This document shows, piece after piece, positions 12,398-64,000 of a stretch of DNA of 64,000 nucleotides (the first letter of the stretch is position 1; every line of letters begins with the position of its first letter). The translations under genes and the position numbers were made by a program. The notes below the pieces were generated by a model. It did no database searches. It worked only from the letters and a program-made list of their open reading frames with translations, and was not told the origin of the DNA. This stretch comes from Candidatus Omnitrophota bacterium (GTDB lineage Bacteria; Omnitrophota; Gorgyraeia; Gygaellales; JAHJCI01): contig JADHWR010000001.1 in NCBI GenBank assembly GCA_016783355.1, forward strand, positions 6,072 to 70,071, read 5' to 3'.

Positions 12398-12494
12398 AAT
12401 GAGTCCGCCAAAGTTCGTTGGCGGACGAATTAATCCCGCTGAGTGTGCCAAAATTATAAAATAGAATTTTGGCACATATTACGAAGCGGGATAA
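12398..12494 (-). ncRNA. Structured leader repeat, copy 1 of 3 (about 100 nt), directly upstream of the rplL ribosome-binding site
   Basis: Its AATGAGTCCGCCAAAGTTCGTTGGCGGACGAATT hairpin is identical to that in copies 2 and 3. A long nested hairpin follows (ATCCCGC...GCGGGAT enclosing GTGCCAAAATT...AATTTTGGCAC). The inner stem differs from copies 2 and 3 by compensatory changes. Confidence 0.6.
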
Positions 12495-31006: not shown

Positions 31007-31198
31007 CCTCGACTTCGTCCCTCGACTTCGTCCCTCGACTTCGTCCCTCGACTTCGTCCCTCGACTTCGCTCGGGACGACCCTGAGCTTGTCGAAGGGTC
31101 GCTCGGGACGACCCTGAGCTTGTCGAAGGGTCGCTCGGGACGACCCTGAGCTTGTTGTCGAAGGGTCGCTCAGTGTCAATCCTGAGCTTGTCGAACGG
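31007..31198. repeat. Tandem array of family-2 units upstream of polA: five copies of a 13 bp unit then three copies of a 32 bp unit. This is not a CRISPR array
   Basis: CCTCGACTTCGTC appears five times. CGGGACGACCCTGAGCTTGTCGAAGGGTCGCT appears three times, followed by a partial CCTGAGCTTGTCGAACGG. There are no unique spacers. The array generates the spurious 68 aa ORF at 30973-31179. Confidence 0.8.
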
Positions 31199-46630: not shown

Positions 46631-46805
46631 CCACAAAGTCGCCACAAAAACGTTGACGACCCGCCAAAGTATTGTGGCGGGATTTGCACCAGAAAGTCGC
46701 CACAAAGCGTTGGCGACCCGCCAAAGTATTATGGCGGGATTTGCACCAGAAAGTCGCCACAAAGCGTTGGCGACCCGCCAAAGTATTATGGCGGGATTGG
46801 CGCAT
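46631..46805. repeat. Three tandem copies of a 57 bp double-hairpin repeat between rimP and nusA, plus a degenerate fourth hairpin
   Basis: Each unit is GTCGCCACAAAGCGTTGGCGAC + CCCGCCAAAGTATTATGGCGGG. Copies start near 46631, 46691 and 46748. The repeats generate overlapping spurious ORFs on both strands. Confidence 0.8.
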
Positions 46806-56922: not shown

Positions 56923-56937
56923 CGCTCCTACCTCCTC

Positions 56938-57031
56938 AATGAGTCCGCCAAAGTTCGTTGGCGGACGAATTGATCCCGCCGAATGCTCTAAAATTATCAG
57001 GGAGAATTTTAGAGCAGTTTATGAGGCGGGG
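56938..57031 (-). ncRNA. Structured leader repeat, copy 2 of 3, directly upstream of the ribosome-binding site of the OmpA-like gene
   Basis: AATGAGTCCGCCAAAGTTCGTTGGCGGACGAATTGATCCCGCCGAATGCTCTAAAATTATCAGGGAGAATTTTAGAGCAG...GAGGCGGGG. Confidence 0.6.
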
Positions 57032-57116
57032 TATGTACATTATTTGGGTCATTCCATAAGTCTCGTCCTTACTTATTTTAAATTATATCTATACCTTCGT
57101 CAATATCTATAAATTT

Positions 57117-58390: not shown

Positions 58391-59632
58391 TTAAGGATTC
58401 ATTGTAAATATCTTTTCTGCAATCTCTGGATATTTGGCAACAAATTTTAATTCCTCGTCAATAAGGGGTTTCTGATTATGAACATTGGCATAACGCACAA
58501 GTTCCAGGACACGTATTGCTTGCGCATCATCTTTAAATTTAACCTCTAATTTCTCATAAACATTCCTAAATCCCTTAATTCCTGAATACTCGCCTGCTGT
58601 AATCTTACGGCCTGTTTCAACAACCTCTGGTTCACCCCTACCCAATTCCTCAAAATCATAAAGTTCGTAATTGCGCCTATCCTTCAATGCCCCATCCGCA
58701 TGAATTCCTGACTCGTGGGCAAAGGCATTGCTGCCCACGCCTGGTTGATTAATTGGTATCGGCACACCAAAGGCATAAGAGGCATATTTGCATAATTTCC
58801 AGGTATATTTCAAACTAATGCGCTCATCCAATTTATATTTGTCCTTTAATCTACTCCCATACTTTATTGCTAATATAACCGGAATCAAATCAGCATTTCC
58901 CGCACGCTCGCCCATTCCATTAATACACGTGTTAATATAAGCATCGAACCCTGCATCATTAACTGCCATTGCACCTACCACTGAATTGGCCACAGCCAAA
59001 CCCAGATCATTATGACAGTGTAGTTCAATAGGCATCTGCGCTGCTTGCGTTAATTGCTTAACTCGCTCATAAATACTAAAGGGGGAATCATATCCTAATG
59101 TATCGCAATATCTAATCCTGTCTGCCCCTGCTCCTTTTGCCACAAGAGCAAACTCAATTAAATATTCCATACGCGTCCGCGAAGCATCCTCAGCATTCAC
59201 GCCTATTGATTTTATGCCTTTTTTCTTTGCTTCTTTTACTGCCTTGGCCATCTCAGTAATTACCTTTCTGTGGTCAAGTCTGCCCTTAAATTTATGAATA
59301 ATCATCTGGTCGGATGTAGAAATAGAAAGGTTAAGATGTTCTATCTTTGGCGTTAGCTGAAAGGTAGCCTTCACATCCTGCGCTGTTGCCCGAATCCAGC
59401 CGCTTAAGCGAATTGGCGACAAAACACCCATCCGGGCTAACTCTAAATTGGCATTAATGTAGTTTGTTTCATGATGGGTAAAAGGAAAACCAAACTCAGA
59501 TTGAAATATACCCATCTTATTAAGATAGACATTAATCATTGTTTTTTGTAGTTTGGAAAGGCATATTCGCGAAGTCTGTACTCCATCACGGTTGGTAACA
59601 TCAATTATGTAAATTTTGGGGTTGTTTTCCAT
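58391..59632 (-). CDS. HMGL-like aldolase-family synthase (2-isopropylmalate / citramalate / homocitrate synthase family)
   Basis: DRE-TIM barrel with DVTNRDGVQ and HCHNDLGLAVANS metal-binding motifs. At 413 aa it lacks a long LeuA regulatory tail. Confidence 0.7.
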   Translation of the reverse strand: MENNPKIYIIDVTNRDGVQTSRICLSKLQKTMINVYLNKMGIFQSEFGFPFTHHETNYINANLELARMGVLSPIRLSGWIRATAQDVKATFQLTPKIEHLNLSISTSDQMIIHKFKGRLDHRKVITEMAKAVKEAKKKGIKSIGVNAEDASRTRMEYLIEFALVAKGAGADRIRYCDTLGYDSPFSIYERVKQLTQAAQMPIELHCHNDLGLAVANSVVGAMAVNDAGFDAYINTCINGMGERAGNADLIPVILAIKYGSRLKDKYKLDERISLKYTWKLCKYASYAFGVPIPINQPGVGSNAFAHESGIHADGALKDRRNYELYDFEELGRGEPEVVETGRKITAGEYSGIKGFRNVYEKLEVKFKDDAQAIRVLELVRYANVHNQKPLIDEELKFVAKYPEIAEKIFTMNP

Positions 59633-59641
59633 TGCTTCACC

Positions 59642-61225
59642 TCAAAGCTTTATCAATTTTGCTGCCAAAACAAATTCTATCTTCCGTATCTCGTTCATTA
59701 AATCCGGACTTACGGGACTATCCACATTTAAAATGCTGATTGCCTCGCCGCCCCGAATCTTGCGGCCGAAAGTCATGGCAGCAATATTTATATCGTGCTT
59801 GCCTAAGAGTGTGCCAATCCTGCCAATAATCCCGGGTAAGTCCTGGTTCTTCATCACAACAAGATAGCCAAAAGGCGAAACCTCCACATAGAAATCATCA
59901 ATCTTGACAATTCGAGGTTCTCGCTTTGGTGATAAAGTAGCAGCAACAACTTTACTTCCTTTATCTGTATCTATCTTAATAGAAATAAGATTTGTAAATT
60001 CTTCTTCGATTGACGCTTTTGTCTCTTTAATTTTGATCCCTCGTTCTCGTGCGAGAGCAACGGCATTAATAAAGTTAATTGCCTCTTTTAAAATCGGGGT
60101 AAGTAATCCCTTAATTACAGCAGCAGATAAACAAGATACGTCGCGCTTGGTAATCTCACCGCTATATTGAATCTCAATCTTGCTAATCCGGCCCTCTACG
60201 AATTGAGCGCTGAAATTGCCTAACCTCTCTGCCATAATTATATAAGGTTTGAGGAATTTATATTCTTGAGGTTCAATCTTGGGAAAGTTAACAGCATTGC
60301 GAATGCCCAATCCCTTTAAATAATCACGGACACATTCGGCAATCTCAACAGCGACATTAATCTGAGCCTCTTCTGTAGATGCGCCCAAGTGAGGTGTTGT
60401 AATAATATTGTCTAATTTTAGAAGTTCAGATTCTTTCTCCGGAGGCTCCTTCTCAAAAACATCTAAGCTTGCGCCGCTAATCTTGCCCTCTTTAATTGCC
60501 GCGACTAATGCCTTCTCGTCAATAATTCCTCCCCGGGCACAATTGATGACGCAGGCCCCCTTCTTCATTAAAGCGAACTCGCGATCAGAAATGAGATGCC
60601 TTGTCGCATCTGTCAACGGGGTATGCACTGTAATAAAATCTGATATTTTAAGTAAGTCGTCTAACTCTACTAATTCTATCCCGATCGCCTGGGCTGCTTC
60701 ATGAGAAAGATAGGGGTCATAAGCTGTAATCTTTATCCCAAAGGATAGTGCTCGCTTTGCTATCTCTTTTCCAATTCTTCCCAATCCAATAATCCCTAAA
60801 ACCTTACCATAAAGTTCCACCCCCATAAATTTAGAACGCTTCCACTCGCCGCTCTTTACGGAGTTATTTGCCTGAGGGATGTTGCGTGCCAGACTTAAGA
60901 TTAAACTCATTGTATGCTCGCAGGTAGATATGGTATTACCCGCTGGTGCATTCATTACCACAATGCCCTTTTCTGTTGCCGCCGCTAAGTCTATGTTATC
61001 TAACCCCACACCGGCACGGCCAATGACCCGCAAATTCCTGGCTTCGTCAATAACTTCTTTTGTAACTTTGGTTGCACTGCGCACAAACAAAGCAACATAT
61101 TCGCAAATGATTGCCTTTAGCTCCTCTGGTTTTAGTCCTGTTTTCAGATCAACCTTAAATTCGGGCGTATCTTTTAAAATCTTCAGCCCTTCTTCTGATA
61201 ATGGGTCACTAACCAAAATTCTCAT
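59642..61225 (-). CDS. serA: D-3-phosphoglycerate dehydrogenase with a C-terminal ACT domain
   Basis: A 527 aa ORF with NAD-binding GLGRIGKEIAKRA, the catalytic His/Glu region, and ASB and ACT domains. Confidence 0.9.
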   Translation of the reverse strand: MRILVSDPLSEEGLKILKDTPEFKVDLKTGLKPEELKAIICEYVALFVRSATKVTKEVIDEARNLRVIGRAGVGLDNIDLAAATEKGIVVMNAPAGNTISTCEHTMSLILSLARNIPQANNSVKSGEWKRSKFMGVELYGKVLGIIGLGRIGKEIAKRALSFGIKITAYDPYLSHEAAQAIGIELVELDDLLKISDFITVHTPLTDATRHLISDREFALMKKGACVINCARGGIIDEKALVAAIKEGKISGASLDVFEKEPPEKESELLKLDNIITTPHLGASTEEAQINVAVEIAECVRDYLKGLGIRNAVNFPKIEPQEYKFLKPYIIMAERLGNFSAQFVEGRISKIEIQYSGEITKRDVSCLSAAVIKGLLTPILKEAINFINAVALARERGIKIKETKASIEEEFTNLISIKIDTDKGSKVVAATLSPKREPRIVKIDDFYVEVSPFGYLVVMKNQDLPGIIGRIGTLLGKHDINIAAMTFGRKIRGGEAISILNVDSPVSPDLMNEIRKIEFVLAAKLIKL

Positions 61226-62358
61226 TTCAAGAATACCTCCTGACTAGCCTTTAAGCCAACACCTAATTCAAATTTATAACCCATCTGATTCAATACTTTC
61301 TCAAGACAAGCAATACAGACAATTAGATCGAATTCATCAATATAGCCCATATGGGCAATGCGAATAATCTTACCTTTCAATTGCGCCTGACCTCCGGCAA
61401 TGACCACGCCATAGGCATCGCGCATCGTCTTTACCAGTTTCTGCCCGTCAATACCCACAGGAACACAGATTGCTGTAACTGCATCAGAGGGAGCAGTTGA
61501 TGCAAAGAGCTCCAATCCCAATGCCCTCGCTGCAGCTCGGCTCGCCTGCGCCATTCTCTTATGACGCTGAAAGATATTTTCCAAGCCCTCTTCCTTGAGC
61601 ATCTTTAGTGCTTCATTCAAGGCAACAATCAAAGATATCGCCGAAGTAAATGGTGTATCAGTCTTATCGAGGGCTTTTTTTGCCTGCTTTAAGTCAAAAT
61701 AATACTTGGGAGATTTTGCTTGCTCAATCAATTTCCAGGCTTTAGCACTTACAGAGAGAAAAGCAAGTCCTGGGGCAACCATCAAGCCCTTCTGTGAACC
61801 GGCAACTACTACATCTACACCCCACCTATCAGTCTGCAAATCAACTGCACCTAAACCACTGATTGCATCAACTACTAATACAGCGCCGCTTTCCCTGACA
61901 ATTTTGCCAATTGTTTCGATATCATTAACCACCCCTGTAGAAGTTTCGCAAAGCGTTGTAAATACTGCTTTGATTCTCGATTCTCGATCAATTCTCGATT
62001 TTATTTCCTTCGGCTCCACTGCCTTACCCCACTCAACCTTGATCACCTCACAGTTTACTCCGAAACTTCGACAGATTTCTGTCCAGCGCTGGCCAAATTT
62101 TCCACCCTCAATTGTGACCACCGTATCTCCTGACGAAAGTAAATTACAGACTGCCGCCTCCATTGCACCTGTCCCGGAAGAAGCAAAGATAAATACATCA
62201 TTTTTTGTCTGAAAAATATATCTTAAATCCTCCTCTACTTCTTTCAAAACTGCCTGAAATTGTGGCGTGCGATGGTGAATTATTGGACGCGCTGCAGCTG
62301 CCATTACCTGTGGCGGTAAAGGCGTTGGCCCTGGTGTCAATAAATAACTTTTCTTCAT
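61222..62358 (-). CDS. Class V aminotransferase, possibly a phosphoserine or serine-glyoxylate aminotransferase
   Basis: A 378 aa PLP fold-type I class V enzyme ([10 protein letters not shown]...) whose start overlaps the serA stop by 4 nt (ATGA), immediately downstream. Confidence 0.7.
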
Positions 62359-62972
62359 GGATTATCTCCTTGTTCCTTAGTGATAATCACCTGATCAACC
62401 AATCCATATTCTTTTGCCTCTTGCGCAGACATAAAATAATCGCGGTCTAAATCCTTTTGAATCTTCTCTATTGGCTGTTTGGTATGTATTGAAAATATCT
62501 TATTTATGCGGTCACGCAACTTCAAAATCTCCTTTGCATGTCGTGAAATATCCTCTGCCGCGCCCTGAATTCCTCCCCACGGTTGATGAATCATCACCCT
62601 CGAATTGGGTAAAACAAGGCGCTTGCCCTTTGTTCCCGCACATAAAAGCAAAGCCGCCATACTTGCTGCCTGGCCAACACAATAAGTAGCGACATCAGGT
62701 TTGACAAACTGCATTGTATCATATATAGCTAAGCCTGCTGTAACAGAACCACCTGGACAATTTATATAGATACTTATCTCTTTATTTACATTTTCCATTT
62801 GCAAGAAAAGCATCTGAGCAATAACAAGGTTAGCAATATTATCATCAATTGGTGAGCCAATAAAAATGATGCGGTCCTTAAGAAGCCGTGAGTAGATATC
62901 ATAAGCGCGTTCATAACCACGGGCTGTCTGTTCAATCACCATGGGAACCAAGGTTTGATTTTTTATCTGCAT
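62355..62972 (-). CDS. clpP: ATP-dependent Clp protease proteolytic subunit
   Basis: A 205 aa ORF with the catalytic Ser context GQAASMAA and the His/Asp region. Confidence 0.93.
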
Positions 62973-62983
62973 TGTGACCTCCT

Positions 62984-63085
62984 CAATGAGTCCGCCAAAG
63001 TTCGTTGGCGGACGAATTGATCCCGCCGAATGCTCTAAAATTATCCCCTGCGGGGAGAATTTTAGAGCAGCTTATGAGGCGGGAT
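62984..63085 (-). ncRNA. Structured leader repeat, copy 3 of 3, directly upstream of the clpP ribosome-binding site. A TATAAT box sits just upstream on the minus strand
   Basis: It matches copy 2 but carries an extra apical CCCCTGCGGGG hairpin. On the minus strand, TATAAT lies about 7 nt before the element's 5' end. Confidence 0.6.
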
Positions 63086-63116
63086 ATACATTATTATAGT
63101 AATCTCTTAAAACTAA

Positions 63117-63189
63117 AGCGGGAGACGGGCTTCGAACCCGCGACATTCACGTTGGCAACGTGATGCTCTACCAACTGAGCTACTCCCGC
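63117..63189 (-). tRNA. tRNA-Gly (anticodon GCC)
   Basis: Cloverleaf GCGGGAGTAGCTCAGTTGGTAGAGCATCACGTTGCCAACGTGAATGTCGCGGGTTCGAAGCCCGTCTCCCGCT. Confidence 0.85.
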
Positions 63190-63216
63190 ATTCCTTTTCG
63201 CAACCTCTCCTTCTAT

Positions 63217-63302
63217 TGCCGCGGGAGAGACTCGAACTCTCAAGTCTTTGTCAGACATTAGGTCCTAAGCCTAACGCGTATACCAAATTCCGCCACCGCG
63301 GC
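63217..63302 (-). tRNA. tRNA-Leu (anticodon TAG), a class II tRNA with a long variable arm
   Basis: An 86 nt sequence, GCCGCGGTGGCGGAATTTGGTATACGCGTTAGGCTTAGGACCTAA...GAGTTCGAGTCTCTCCCGCGGCA, with anticodon loop CTTAGGA. Confidence 0.8.
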
Positions 63303-63331
63303 CAAAACCCCATCAGCAAAAACAAGTTCAC

Positions 63332-63730
63332 TGAGCCACCCGCGACTCGAACGCGGCACACCCGCCTTAAACATTTTTGTTAACTGTATGTCGCCATACA
63401 GATCAGACTATCCCATCCCCCTCACGCTTATCCTTAAAAAAGAAAGCGATGGGGGTCTCGATTATAGTCGTTGAACCTTCCCAGTACTTATTTGCTAAGA
63501 TAATTTCTGATTCAAATAAATGCCGGGCTTGGCTGCAGATTGTCTGCATTTAAGAATTTTTACCCCCGCCACAATACTTTGGCGGGTCGCCAATGCTTTG
63601 TGGCGACAGACATAAAGGGTATCTTAAAATACTCAGACTTTCCCGCAATTTACGAGATTCTCACTATTGATTTCTCAATAATGGCCCCTTTTTCGCGAGG
63701 GCGGTGCTCTACCAGATGAGCTAGTGGCCC
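63332..63730 (-). tRNA. Split tRNA gene (73 nt mature, anticodon inferred UUU, so Lys) interrupted in the anticodon loop by a 326 nt group I intron
   Basis: Exon 1 (63698-63730) is GGGCCACTAGCTCATCTGGTAGAGCACCGCCCT. Exon 2 (63332-63371) is TTTAAGGCGGGTGTGCCGCGTTCGAGTCGCGGGTGGCTCA. The two halves form a complete cloverleaf with a GGGCCAC/GTGGCTC acceptor and a CCGCC/GGCGG anticodon stem. Confidence 0.7.
63372..63697 (-). ncRNA. Group I intron within the tRNA-Lys(UUU) anticodon loop
   Basis: The 5' exon ends in U and the intron ends in G. Intron segments resemble the Tetrahymena P4 (AAAUUGCGGGAAAG), P6 (GCAGCCAAG) and P7 (ACGACUAUAAUCG...GAUAGUCUGAUC) regions. Its P5 region contains a copy of the rimP-nusA double-hairpin repeat. 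Confidence 0.7.
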
Positions 63731-64000
63731 ATTTCTATCTTAAATTTGTAATTATTGCCAAAGAACAAAATCTATATCTATTTCTGATAAGATTTTAATA
63801 ATAAATCTAAGATTTTTCTCTTTGAAATTTTTCTTTTCCAAATTCCATTCTTTCTGCTCGCATTTATATAAATTCTAGGCGAAAAATTTATCTCTTTAGC
63901 AAATCTTAATAAGTTTTCCCTTTTGGAGATTTCTATCTCAGTGCCCCTTTTATTAATTCTGCTCTTTATACCAAAACCATTTAATAAATCTTTTATCTGT

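What the first reader, a model, noticed from the sequence alone, without database searches (positions are those of the whole stretch)
63332..63730. tRNA gene (anticodon inferred UUU) split by a 326 nt group I intron
The two exon halves lie 326 nt apart and reconstitute a canonical 73 nt tRNA. The intervening sequence starts after U33, ends in G, and shows P4/P6/P7-like blocks: AAAUUGCGGGAAAG, GCAGCCAAG, ACGACUAUAAUCG...GAUAGUCUGAUC. Bacterial tRNA group I introns are known mainly in Leu(UAA), fMet, Ile and Arg tRNAs, so a Lys(UUU) host would be unusual. The anticodon assignment depends on my reading of the splice junction.
Basis: partly seen in the sequence, partly recalled or inferred. Interest (0 to 1): 0.7.

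Follow-up and report, generated by a model that had tools for sequence, protein, structure and literature searches.

The report
Intron-split tRNA-Lys with flanking endonuclease
A lysine tRNA gene of an uncultured Omnitrophota bacterium is interrupted in its anticodon loop by a self-splicing group I intron, and a free-standing homing-endonuclease gene sits directly beside it; this pairing recurs in relatives and probably explains how the ORF-less intron spreads.

Summary
On the minus strand, 63730-63698 and 63371-63332 join into a 73-nt tRNA-Lys(UUU). The 326 nt between them are a group I intron (Rfam RF00028, 88 bits), inserted after U33 and ending in G.

The genome is Candidatus Omnitrophota. 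I recovered 65 distinct copies of the same intron at the same site. Its P1-P9 structure is strongly supported by covariation, including the guide sequence covarying with the tRNA anticodon stem. About 27 related species have the same gene uninterrupted at the same locus (frr-tRNALys-tRNALeu-tRNAGly).

Lys(UUU) introns at 34/35 were published in 2026. I found no report of 33/34 in Lys, or of this lineage.

The more interesting result lies just outside the given coordinates. A 281-aa free-standing LAGLIDADG endonuclease gene ends 47 nt upstream of the tRNA.
- In Omnitrophota it occurs only beside the split gene: 20 of 43 intron-bearing loci versus 0 of 27 intact loci.
- Distant homologues flank a tRNA-Lys split by an unrelated intron at 34/35.
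- Other homologues flank intact tRNA-Lys genes in Patescibacteria.

I infer a tRNA-Lys-targeting endonuclease that mobilises the intron in trans. The cleavage site is untested.

The parts
63698..63730 (-). tRNA-Lys(UUU) exon 1: positions 1-33 (acceptor 5' strand, D arm, anticodon-stem 5' strand, C32, U33). Its last 4-5 nt (GCCCU) form the 5' strand of P1.
   Evidence: Sequence. ARAGORN calls the spliced product tRNA-Lys. Exon stems show compensatory changes across 59 homologues.
63372..63697 (-). Group I intron, 326 nt, with no ORF. The 5' splice site follows U33 and the 3'-terminal G (omega-G) is at 63372.
   Evidence: Rfam RF00028, 88.1 bits. Structure counts on alignment A1 give 97.4% of cells paired and 39 of 70 pairs with double changes.
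63684..63693 (-). Internal guide sequence AAAAAGGGGC. GGGGC pairs with exon GCCCU (P1, with U33.G). The A run can pair with UUU of exon 2 (P10).
   Evidence: Coordinates. P1 covariation. The guide position 5' of P1 is a purine in 57 of 59 homologues.
63662..63683 (-). P2 hairpin: 9 bp with a GAAA tetraloop.
   Evidence: Coordinates. All 7 tested pairs covary. The loop is GNRA in the homologues.
63534..63657 (-). P3 5' strand (UCUCG), J3/4, and the P4-P5-P5a-P5b domain through P4'.
   Evidence: Coordinates. P3 is 100% paired with 3 of 5 pairs covarying. P5a and P5b covary. P4 is nearly invariant.
63566..63607 (-). 42-nt palindromic insert in the terminal loop of P5b (GUCGCCACAAAGCAUUGGCGAC CCGCCAAAGUAUUGUGGCGG). 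It is absent from all other copies of the intron and accounts for most of this copy's extra length.
   Evidence: Alignment A1 shows the insert only in the window's row. The same 40-mer, with 2 mismatches, occurs at 46698-46737 and 46755-46794.
63475..63533 (-). P6/P6a hairpin.
   Evidence: Coordinates. All 7 distal pairs covary.
63403..63474 (-). Catalytic core 3' half: J6/7, P7 5' strand (UCA..GACUAU), P3' (CGAGA), P8 hairpin and P7 3' strand (AUAGUCUGA). P3 and P7 form the group I pseudoknot.
   Evidence: Coordinates. P7 is invariant in 59 of 59. All 7 P8 pairs covary.
63372..63401 (-). P9 hairpin (7 bp with a GCGA tetraloop, 63401-63384), then the tail UUAACAAAAAUG ending in omega-G.
   Evidence: Coordinates. 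5 of 7 P9 pairs covary. The G before UUUAA is invariant.
63332..63371 (-). tRNA-Lys(UUU) exon 2: U34 U35 U36 A37 A38, anticodon-stem 3' strand, variable loop, T arm, acceptor 3' strand and discriminator A73. No CCA is encoded.
63778..64000 (-). C-terminal 73 codons plus the stop codon of a free-standing LAGLIDADG homing-endonuclease gene. The full ORF is 281 aa (L001:1350-2195, equivalent to window coordinates 64623-63778). Its start abuts the frr stop codon, and it ends 47 nt before the tRNA.
   Evidence: L001 is 100% identical to the window over 59355-64000. Other evidence: the ORF, Pfam LAGLIDADG_3, frame-1 translation of the window part, invariant catalytic motifs and the I-DmoI-like fold.
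63217..63302 (-). tRNA-Leu(UAG), the next gene of the conserved tRNA cluster.
   Evidence: The same order is found in relatives.
63117..63189 (-). tRNA-Gly(GCC), the third gene of the cluster, followed by clpP (62972-62355).

Best explanation
What it is. The locus is the tRNA-Lys(UUU) gene of a Candidatus Omnitrophota bacterium. A compact, ORF-less group I intron interrupts it between U33 and U34.

How splicing is expected to work.
- After transcription the intron folds into P1-P9. P1 is exon GCCCU paired with guide GGGGC, with the U33.G wobble at the 5' splice site.
- GNRA tetraloops close P2 and P9. P3 and P7 form the usual pseudoknot.
- The intron excises itself by the standard two-step guanosine-initiated transesterification, using omega-G at 63372. 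This restores the UUU anticodon.

How the intron probably moves. The intron has no endonuclease gene of its own. A free-standing monomeric LAGLIDADG endonuclease gene lies 47 nt upstream of the tRNA, and its start abuts the frr stop codon. I propose that this enzyme recognises the uninterrupted tRNA-Lys(UUU) gene and cuts it. Repair from the intron-bearing allele would then co-convert the intron, and the endonuclease gene about 80 nt away, into the broken allele. This is collaborative or trans homing. The intron splits the target and so protects the carrier genome.

Shown: the gene structure, the intron fold, the presence/absence polymorphism, and the linkage between endonuclease gene and intron.
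Inferred: self-splicing activity (probability about 0.9) and the endonuclease target and homing role (about 0.55-0.6).
For: Intron
- Rfam score is 88.1 bits in the window and 79-92 bits in five related genomes.
- There are 65 distinct split tRNA-Lys precursors, all at 33/34.
- On 59 of them, 97.4% of structure cells are paired, against 84.6% in shuffles and 34-43% with slid partners. 39 of 70 pairs have double changes. U33.G holds in 59 of 59. P1 pair 30-55 switches CG/GC together with the anticodon stem.

Polymorphism
- At the same position (frr - X - tRNA-Leu(UAG) - tRNA-Gly(GCC)), about 27 Omnitrophota species carry an intact tRNA-Lys(UUU).
- Six of these are identical to the window's spliced exons across AGAGCACCGCCCTTTTAAGGCGGGTG.

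Endonuclease gene
- The protein has two motifs, HFMFDG and FFDDEG, whose acidic residues D98 and E185 are invariant in 40-66 homologues down to 32% identity.
- The model has pLDDT 92.8 and matches I-DmoI (TM about 0.70) and intein endonucleases.

Linkage in Omnitrophota
- All seven Omnitrophota-type homologues sampled by protein identity alone lie beside a tRNA-Lys split at 33/34.
- On the frr tree the states are 27 empty, 23 intron only, 20 intron plus endonuclease gene, and 0 endonuclease gene without intron (Fisher p = 6.6e-6).
- The gene lies 21-58 nt upstream in 22 loci and 12-48 nt downstream in 4-5 loci, always on the tRNA strand.
- L120 and L192 are 88% identical in DNA and differ by a clean indel of about 880 nt that is exactly the endonuclease gene.
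- L169 retains only a 62-codon remnant of the gene.

The family tracks the target gene, not one intron
- A 37%-identical homologue (L203) starts 24 nt after a tRNA-Lys(UUU) split at 34/35 by an unrelated intron.
Against: - No cleavage or splicing assay exists, and the endonuclease's recognition site is unknown.
- In Patescibacteria, homologues at 35-37% identity sit 2-48 nt downstream of an intact tRNA-Lys(UUU). The family can therefore coexist with an uninterrupted gene, so an intron is not universally needed for immunity. The target may instead be the tRNA flank.
- About 14-23 intron-bearing loci have no endonuclease gene.
- Intron and endonuclease divergence both track frr divergence (Spearman 0.63 and 0.64). 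Much of the history may therefore be vertical inheritance with losses rather than active transfer.
- The association test is not phylogenetically corrected, and the three samples were ascertained differently (by frr, by endonuclease protein, by intron 20-mer).
- The frr tree is a neighbour-joining tree on 186 residues.
Confidence: 0.6

Rival explanations
1. The intron is real, but the LAGLIDADG gene is an independent selfish element. It homes into the intergenic DNA next to tRNA-Lys by cutting at the tRNA flank or end, not at the intron insertion site. The intron is then either a bystander or is merely dragged along by co-conversion.
For: - Patescibacterial homologues abut intact tRNA-Lys genes.
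- The gene occupies different sides of the tRNA in different lineages.
- Many intron copies lack it.
Against: - In Omnitrophota it was never found beside an intact tRNA-Lys: 0 of 27, against 20 of 43 split loci.
- A distant homologue accompanies a different intron at a neighbouring position of the same anticodon loop. That is hard to explain unless disrupting the loop matters.
Confidence: 0.2
2. The LAGLIDADG protein is mainly a maturase. It is a trans-acting splicing cofactor, co-transcribed with the tRNA, that helps the intron fold.
For: - LAGLIDADG maturases exist. bI3 and I-AniI appear among the structural matches, and the Thermotoga 23S intron protein is described in PMC3984707.
- The gene is always on the tRNA strand and immediately adjacent.
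Against: - At least 14 loci with full flanks keep a conserved, covarying intron with no such gene, so the ribozyme does not depend on it.
- Both catalytic acidic residues are invariant, whereas dedicated maturases such as bI3 have lost them (my knowledge of the family).
- Homologues occur beside intron-less tRNA-Lys genes.
Confidence: 0.1
3. The LAGLIDADG protein is a domesticated DNA-binding factor, like WhiA, that acts on the tRNA-Lys locus. It is not a mobile element.
For: - It has an N-terminal helix-turn-helix region.
- WhiA appears among the fold matches.
- Its position is conserved and its divergence tracks the host.
Against: - The distribution is patchy even between near-identical genomes (L120 versus L192).
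- A decayed remnant exists (L169).
- The nuclease active-site residues are invariant.
- It is absent from most relatives.
Confidence: 0.05
4. The split gene is a dead tRNA pseudogene, and a second, intact tRNA-Lys(UUU) elsewhere in the genome does the work.
For: Only 64 kb plus 2 kb of this genome was available. I could not check for another copy.
Against: - Exon stems keep pairing through many compensatory changes.
- The guide sequence co-evolves with the exon.
- The gene sits at the position where relatives have their intact tRNA-Lys(UUU).
Confidence: 0.03

Closest known systems
Bacterial tRNA anticodon-loop group I introns: Leu(UAA) 34/35, fMet 33/34, Arg(CCU) and Ile2 36/37, Asn/Asp 35/36, and Lys(UUU) 34/35 in Actinomycetota and Bacteroidota (Williams 2020; Nakagawa et al. 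2026, PMC13011429)
   Same: - A self-splicing group I intron in the anticodon loop, with U-1/omega-G boundaries and P1 built from anticodon-stem nucleotides.
- Usually no ORF.
- Missed by standard tRNA finders.
- Lys(UUU) is an already recorded host.
   Different: - The site is 33/34 rather than 34/35 in tRNA-Lys.
- The core sequence (GGUUCAACGACUAUAAUC ... GAUAGUCUGA) differs from the IC3 core (GGUGUAGAGACUAGACGG) and from the IB2/IB4 cores of the published Lys introns.
- The host phylum is Omnitrophota. Its one listed tRNA intron is an IC3 intron in tRNA-fMet.
- The endonuclease gene lies outside the intron.
Collaborative or trans homing in phages: cyanophage S-PM2 psbA intron with the free-standing F-CphI, and T4 mobE mobilising the defunct I-TevIII intron (PMC6083498, PMC2790892, review PMC3984707)
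   Same: An ORF-less (or ORF-defective) group I intron with a free-standing endonuclease gene next to the interrupted gene. The predicted outcome is co-conversion of both into intronless alleles.
   Different: - The setting is a bacterial chromosome, not a phage.
- The host gene is a tRNA.
- The enzyme is a LAGLIDADG protein, not an Endo VII-like or HNH protein.
- The same enzyme family is found beside two unrelated introns and beside intact targets.
- Cleavage has not been demonstrated here.
[quoted passage not shown]
   Same: It is a precedent for a homing endonuclease whose DNA target is a tRNA anticodon-loop region carrying a 33/34 intron.
   Different: That enzyme is a PD-(D/E)xK protein encoded inside the intron. 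Here the enzyme is a LAGLIDADG protein encoded outside it.
Monomeric LAGLIDADG endonucleases: I-DmoI, and the PI-PfuI and TliVMA intein endonuclease domains
   Same: A two-domain fold with one LAGLIDADG helix per domain and conserved Asp/Glu.
   Different: - Sequence identity is only 13-18%.
- There is an extra N-terminal helix-turn-helix region of about 65 residues.
- The gene is free-standing rather than encoded in an intron or intein.
Phage group I introns in nrdD and structural genes
   Same: They share an exact 20-23-nt J6/7-P7 string and a similar P7-P9 segment.
   Different: They sit in protein-coding genes of viral contigs, and several carry a GIY-YIG ORF inside the intron. Similarity to the window's intron is confined to the core.

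Membership tests
Group I intron (Rfam RF00028) | Covariance-model score above the curated gathering score | tested here: met
   88.1 bits against a gathering score of 50, E = 3.9e-21, full model 1-253.
Group I intron (Rfam RF00028) | P1 helix formed by the 5' exon end and an internal guide, with a U.G wobble at the 5' splice site | tested here: met
   GCCCU pairs with GGGGC. U33.G holds in 59 of 59 homologues. The flanking pairs covary (30-55: CG 29 / GC 29; 34-51: UA 27 / CG 25).
Group I intron (Rfam RF00028) | 3'-terminal guanosine (omega-G) immediately before the 3' exon | tested here: met
   G at 63372. The G before UUUAA is invariant in alignment A1.
Group I intron (Rfam RF00028) | Conserved core of P3-P9 helices with the P3/P7 pseudoknot | tested here: met
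   Thirteen helices are 97.4% paired and 39 of 70 pairs have double changes. P3 is 100% paired with 3 covarying pairs. P7 is invariant.
Group I intron (Rfam RF00028) | Guanosine-dependent self-splicing | not testable with these tools
   This needs in vitro transcription and splicing, or RNA-seq.
tRNA-Lys(UUU) | Canonical cloverleaf with anticodon UUU after exon joining | tested here: met
   ARAGORN calls the 73-nt joined sequence tRNA-Lys(ttt). The acceptor, anticodon and T stems keep pairing through compensatory changes. Its position matches the intact tRNA-Lys(ttt) of relatives.
tRNA-Lys(UUU) | Aminoacylation with lysine | not testable with these tools
   U35 and A73 are present in the sequence. 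Their role as identity elements is from my knowledge of E. coli tRNA-Lys.
IC3 subgroup (the classical bacterial tRNA introns) | IC3-type core sequence and architecture | tested here: inconclusive
   The peripheral layout is IC3-like: GNRA loops on P2 and P9, and no P7.1/P7.2. The J6/7-P7 and P7' strings differ from the IC3 rows of Table S5 and match phage introns. No subgroup covariance models were available.
LAGLIDADG homing endonuclease | Two LAGLIDADG motifs with catalytic acidic residues in a monomeric two-domain fold | tested here: met
   HFMFD98G and FFDDE185G are invariant in 40-66 homologues. Pfam LAGLIDADG_3, E = 1.4e-9. The model has pLDDT 92.8 and matches I-DmoI and intein endonucleases.
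LAGLIDADG homing endonuclease | Site-specific double-strand cleavage of an allele lacking the element | not testable with these tools
   This needs a cleavage assay on intronless and intron-containing tRNA-Lys DNA.
Collaborative / trans homing unit (free-standing endonuclease plus ORF-less intron) | Endonuclease gene adjacent to, but outside, an intron that lacks an ORF | tested here: met
   The gene ends 47 nt before exon 1, and the intron has no ORF. The same arrangement occurs in 26 or more further loci.
Collaborative / trans homing unit (free-standing endonuclease plus ORF-less intron) | Endonuclease gene found only in genomes whose target is interrupted | tested here: inconclusive
   Met within Omnitrophota: 0 of 27 intact against 20 of 43 split loci, p = 6.6e-6. 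Not met for the 35-37%-identical Patescibacteria homologues, which flank intact tRNA-Lys genes.
Collaborative / trans homing unit (free-standing endonuclease plus ORF-less intron) | Enzyme cuts at or near the intron insertion site, and the split allele is immune | not testable with these tools
   No biochemical data exist.

The most novel reading that the evidence does not exclude
One family of free-standing LAGLIDADG endonucleases has the bacterial tRNA-Lys(UUU) gene as its homing site. Natural genomes would then preserve every stage of the proposed pathway by which mobile group I introns arise:
- an empty site;
- an endonuclease gene beside an intact target (Patescibacteria);
- an endonuclease gene beside a target protected by either of two unrelated ORF-less introns (33/34 in Omnitrophota, 34/35 in L203);
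- a decaying endonuclease gene (L169);
- the intron alone.

This would be the first chromosomal, tRNA-based, LAGLIDADG example of collaborative homing. It would also mean that many 'immobile' ORF-less tRNA introns are mobilised in trans.
Probability: 0.45. Interest if true: 0.75.

Novelty: new variant of a known kind. Interest (0 to 1): 0.6.

Why it matters
1. Annotation. Default ARAGORN and the Rfam tRNA model miss this gene. Genomes of this clade would therefore seem to lack tRNA-Lys(UUU), which distorts completeness and codon-usage inferences.

2. Intron mobility. The latest survey of bacterial tRNA introns looked for endonuclease genes only inside introns and concluded that mobility is limited (PMC13011429, section 9). 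Here the endonuclease gene is outside the intron. Trans mobilisation may therefore be under-counted.

3. Origin of mobile introns. The same enzyme family beside two unrelated introns and beside intact targets makes this origin directly testable in bacteria. The enzyme is compact (281 aa) and its predicted target is about 20 bp of a near-universal tRNA sequence.

4. Applications. A LAGLIDADG enzyme that recognises a conserved tRNA gene could be a useful scaffold for engineered nucleases.

Tried and rejected
- ARAGORN in intron mode found the gene ends but placed the intron wrongly and called tRNA-Val(gac). I rejected that call using the U-1/omega-G rule and the cloverleaf.
- The single-sequence minimum-free-energy fold and RNAalifold did not recover P1, P3 or P4. 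I drew these by hand from the Rfam alignment and tested them.
- I first read the P5 extension as a P5abc-like domain and the core as Tetrahymena IC1-like. The alignment showed that the extra length is a genome-specific palindromic repeat in the P5b loop. I dropped the IC1 idea and left the subgroup unassigned.
- After I thought endonuclease gene and intron co-occurred perfectly. The metagenome scan showed many intron-only loci, and the Patescibacteria homologues flank intact genes. I weakened the claim accordingly.
- A PDB sequence search with the single protein found nothing. The profile search found only an intein and helix-turn-helix hits.
- A viral-contig scan for the endonuclease family found no relatives, so there is no evidence for a phage vector.
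- Literature searches for Omnitrophota tRNA introns, for LAGLIDADG next to tRNA-Lys, and for the labels 'Lys.2Ug' or 'Lys.3Ug' found nothing relevant.
- Williams's table of 21 types is an image, and Nakagawa's Table S5 is cut off early in Patescibacteria. I therefore cannot exclude a published Lys 33/34 case.
Full report
**1. The observation**

Read on the minus strand, 63730-63698 is GGGCCACUAGCUCAUCUGGUAGAGCACCGCCCU. This is the first 33 nt of a tRNA up to U33. 63371-63332 is UUUAAGGCGGGUGUGCCGCGUUCGAGUCGCGGGUGGCUCA, the remaining 40 nt. Joined, they give a 73-nt molecule that ARAGORN calls tRNA-Lys(ttt) with a normal cloverleaf and discriminator A73.

The 326 nt between them start with CGCGAAAAAGGGGCC and end in ...AAAAAUG. 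Rfam's Intron_gpI model matches 63384-63707 on the minus strand over its full length with 88.1 bits (gathering score 50, E = 3.9e-21). The match begins 10 nt inside exon 1, which is the 5' strand of P1. It stops at the end of P9, 12 nt before the terminal G.

Default ARAGORN and the Rfam tRNA model see the neighbouring tRNA-Leu(UAG) and tRNA-Gly(GCC) but not this gene.

**2. The splice junction and the anticodon**

The intron begins with C, so exon 1 cannot be extended. Only the G at 63372 is followed by a sequence that completes a 7-nt anticodon loop and a 5-bp stem. The junction is therefore 33/34 and the anticodon is UUU.

P1 is exon GCCCU paired with guide GGGGC. The A run 5' of the guide can pair with UUU of exon 2 (P10). 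In the family, the guide position next to P1 is a purine in 57 of 59 copies.

**3. The organism and the locus**

An ENA metagenome contig (L001) is 100% identical to window 59355-64000 and extends 1,972 nt beyond the window end. Reading along the tRNA strand, the gene order is tsf, pyrH, frr, a 281-aa LAGLIDADG ORF, the split tRNA-Lys, tRNA-Leu(UAG), tRNA-Gly(GCC), clpP.

The closest frr genes in one-genome-per-species GTDB data belong to Candidatus Omnitrophota MAGs, at 53-75% identity. The closest LAGLIDADG proteins are annotated as Omnitrophica/Omnitrophota.

**4. The intron is a conserved, structured lineage**

Five further genomes found through the LAGLIDADG protein carry the same intron at the same site, with Rfam scores of 79-92 bits. 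A metagenome scan with the 20-mer AAGGTTCAACGACTATAATC returned 106 stretches. Of these, 64 hold a complete tRNA-Lys(UUU) split at 33/34. Together with genome loci this gives 65 distinct precursors. Their introns are 231-412 nt long, with a median of 266.

I tested a hand-drawn P1-P9 structure on an alignment of 59 precursors.
- 97.4% of 4,108 cells are paired. Shuffled partners give 84.6% and slid partners give 34-43%.
- 39 of 70 pairs have changes on both sides, and none of 500 shuffles reaches any measure.
- U33.G holds in 59 of 59.
- P1 pair 30-55 is CG in 29 and GC in 29, so the guide sequence tracks the host's anticodon stem.
- P3, which is pseudoknotted with P7, is 100% paired with three covarying pairs.
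- P2 and P9 end in GNRA tetraloops.

The exon stems also show many compensatory changes, so the tRNA is under selection. I conclude with about 0.9 probability that this is a functional self-splicing intron. Splicing itself is inferred.

The window's copy is longer than the median. One reason is a 42-nt palindrome in the P5b loop that no other copy has. The same element occurs twice at 46698-46794 in the window. It is a genome-specific repeat that landed in a tolerant loop.

**5. Presence/absence polymorphism**

Among loci fetched by frr alone, about 27 Omnitrophota species have an uninterrupted tRNA-Lys(UUU) a few to about 100 nt after frr, followed by the same tRNA-Leu and tRNA-Gly genes. They have no intron and no LAGLIDADG gene.

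Six of these intact alleles match the window's ligated exons exactly across the 26 nt around the insertion site. On a neighbour-joining frr tree the states are intermingled, and the window's nearest relatives are empty sites.

**6. The neighbouring endonuclease gene**

The ORF's last 73 codons lie in the window (63778-64000). Its start abuts the frr stop codon and it ends 47 nt before the tRNA.
- It matches Pfam LAGLIDADG_3.
- Across 40-66 homologues down to 32% identity, the two motifs HFMFDG and FFDDEG are invariant, including D98 and E185. So are Q201, N254, R257 and K268.
- An AlphaFold model (pLDDT 92.8, pTM 0.81) shows an N-terminal helical region followed by two alpha-beta domains.
- Foldseek matches the TliVMA and PI-PfuI intein endonucleases and I-DmoI, with a TM-score of about 0.70 on the target.

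It therefore looks like an intact monomeric LAGLIDADG nuclease.

**7. Linkage of endonuclease gene and intron**

- I sampled seven Omnitrophota-type homologues purely by protein identity: P0017, P0025, P0027, P0039, P0064, P0067 and P0084. Each lies next to a tRNA-Lys split at 33/34.
- Among the 65 precursors, a full-length copy lies 21-58 nt upstream in 22 and 12-48 nt downstream in 4, always on the tRNA strand. In 14 there is none, despite at least 950 nt of flank on both sides.
- On the frr tree there are 27 empty loci, 23 intron-only loci, 20 loci with intron plus endonuclease gene, and none with the endonuclease gene alone. Fisher p = 6.6e-6, not corrected for phylogeny or for how the samples were drawn.
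- L120 and L192 are 88% identical in DNA and differ by a clean indel of about 880 nt. The indel is the endonuclease gene, whose ATG overlaps the frr stop codon (TAATG).
- L169 retains only the last 62 codons.

These are the signatures of a gene that is gained and lost. Both the intron and the endonuclease gene also diverge in step with frr (Spearman 0.63 and 0.64). Much of the history is therefore vertical, or transfer occurs mainly among close relatives.

**8. The family follows the tRNA-Lys gene, not one intron**

A 37%-identical homologue on a 427-kb contig (L203) starts 24 nt after a tRNA-Lys(UUU) split at 34/35. That intron has a different core (gagacuacacgcg ... gauauagucc), like the IB2 Lys introns published for Actinomycetota.

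Homologues at 35-37% identity in Patescibacteria (Zambryskibacteria, Paceibacterota) start 2-48 nt after an intact tRNA-Lys(UUU). The common denominator across three lineages is the tRNA-Lys(UUU) gene.

**9. Mechanism proposed**

The simplest reading is that the enzyme family recognises tRNA-Lys(UUU) DNA. In Omnitrophota the intron splits the site and protects the carrier. A cut in an intronless allele would be repaired from the carrier, copying the intron and the endonuclease gene less than 100 nt away.

This matches collaborative or trans homing as described for cyanophage psbA with F-CphI and for T4 mobE with I-TevIII (PMC6083498, PMC2790892, PMC3984707). An endonuclease aimed at a tRNA anticodon region has a precedent in the tRNA-fMet intron enzyme (cited in PMC3984707). 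The absence of the state 'endonuclease gene without intron' in Omnitrophota fits an order of loss in which the endonuclease gene must go first.

Against this, the Patescibacteria loci show that the family can live beside an intact target. The cut site could instead lie in the flank. No assay exists. I put the homing interpretation at about 0.55-0.6.

A maturase role is less likely. Intron-only loci keep a fully covarying ribozyme, and the nuclease residues are invariant.

**10. Comparison with the literature**

The four classical bacterial tRNA intron types were extended to 21 by Williams (2020). Nakagawa et al. (2026) found introns at nearly every anticodon-loop position. Their Table S5 lists five Lys(UUU) introns, all at 34/35, of subgroups IB2, IC3 and IB4.

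The readable part of that table runs alphabetically into Patescibacteria. It contains one Omnitrophota row (fMet 33/34, IC3), no Lys 33/34 entry, and no sequence with this intron's core 17-mer. That paper searched for endonuclease genes only inside introns and inferred limited mobility.

I found no paper on Omnitrophota tRNA introns or on LAGLIDADG genes beside tRNA-Lys. The library is incomplete, and Williams's table is an image.

The intron's J6/7-P7 20-mer also occurs in group I introns of nrdD-like and structural genes on viral contigs, some with a GIY-YIG ORF. I could not assign a subgroup.

**11. Verdict**

The finding is real and correctly interpreted. On its own it is a new member of a known kind, namely another tRNA group I intron, at a site not yet recorded for tRNA-Lys as far as I could check. 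Together with the flanking endonuclease family it is a new variant of collaborative homing that deserves a bench test.

Noticed in passing
window 46698-46737 and 46755-46794 (+); 63566-63605 (-): A 40-nt palindromic element (CGCCACAAAGCRTTGGCGACCCGCCAAAGTATTRTGGCGG) occurs twice in tandem near 46.7 kb and once inside the P5b loop of the intron. A related 41 nt (88% identical) lies outside any intron at L010:4551-4591. It looks like a small REP/MITE-like repeat.
   Followed up: partly
window about 62977-63095, 56930-57044, 12398-12457: An intergenic sequence of about 120 nt just upstream of clpP is repeated at 91% identity upstream of another gene near 57.0 kb. A 60-nt part recurs at 12.4 kb. 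It may be a shared promoter or leader, or a mobile repeat.
   Followed up: no
window 31068-31153 (+): ARAGORN calls an 86-nt tRNA-Pro(cgg) here, but the Rfam tRNA model gives no hit at its gathering score. It is either a false positive or an unusual tRNA.
   Followed up: no
L203:2155-2481 (GCA_034680565.1): A tRNA-Lys(UUU) is split at 34/35 by a different, IB2-like group I intron (Rfam 57.7 bits). A homologous LAGLIDADG gene (37% identity) starts 24 nt downstream.
   Followed up: partly
L204:101-1062, L206:1231-2192, L207:1426-2331, L208:1426-2331: In Patescibacteria, homologous LAGLIDADG genes start 2-48 nt after an intact tRNA-Lys(UUU). A SpoU-type methylase gene lies nearby in three of the four loci.
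   Followed up: partly
L197:3959-5855; L199-L201:4166-5855: In one Omnitrophota subgroup the split tRNA-Lys is followed by archease and RtcB (RNA ligase) genes. In L197 the RtcB product is 990 aa long and has an intein-splicing domain hit. RtcB is not needed for group I splicing, so the adjacency may be coincidental.
   Followed up: no
L119, L105, L123, L097, L137/L146, L132, L153; viral contigs L210-L221: The intron's exact 20-mer also marks group I introns in nrdD-like (GRGNICPVTIILPTLAME) and phage structural-like ORFs on IMG/VR contigs. Several carry a GIY-YIG-like ORF (MGCIYMYTN...) inside the intron.
   Followed up: partly
window 63755-63764 (-) and the equivalent position in L004, L007, L009, L010, L039, L120, L192: A conserved motif TTGTTCTTTG (variants TTCGTTCATTG and CTGCTCTTTG) lies 20-45 nt upstream of the tRNA-Lys 5' end, whether or not the endonuclease gene is present. 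It may be part of the tRNA promoter. The consensus promoter scan was not informative.
   Followed up: no
L169:4891-5076: Only the last 62 codons of the LAGLIDADG gene remain between frr and the split tRNA-Lys. This is a decaying copy.
   Followed up: partly
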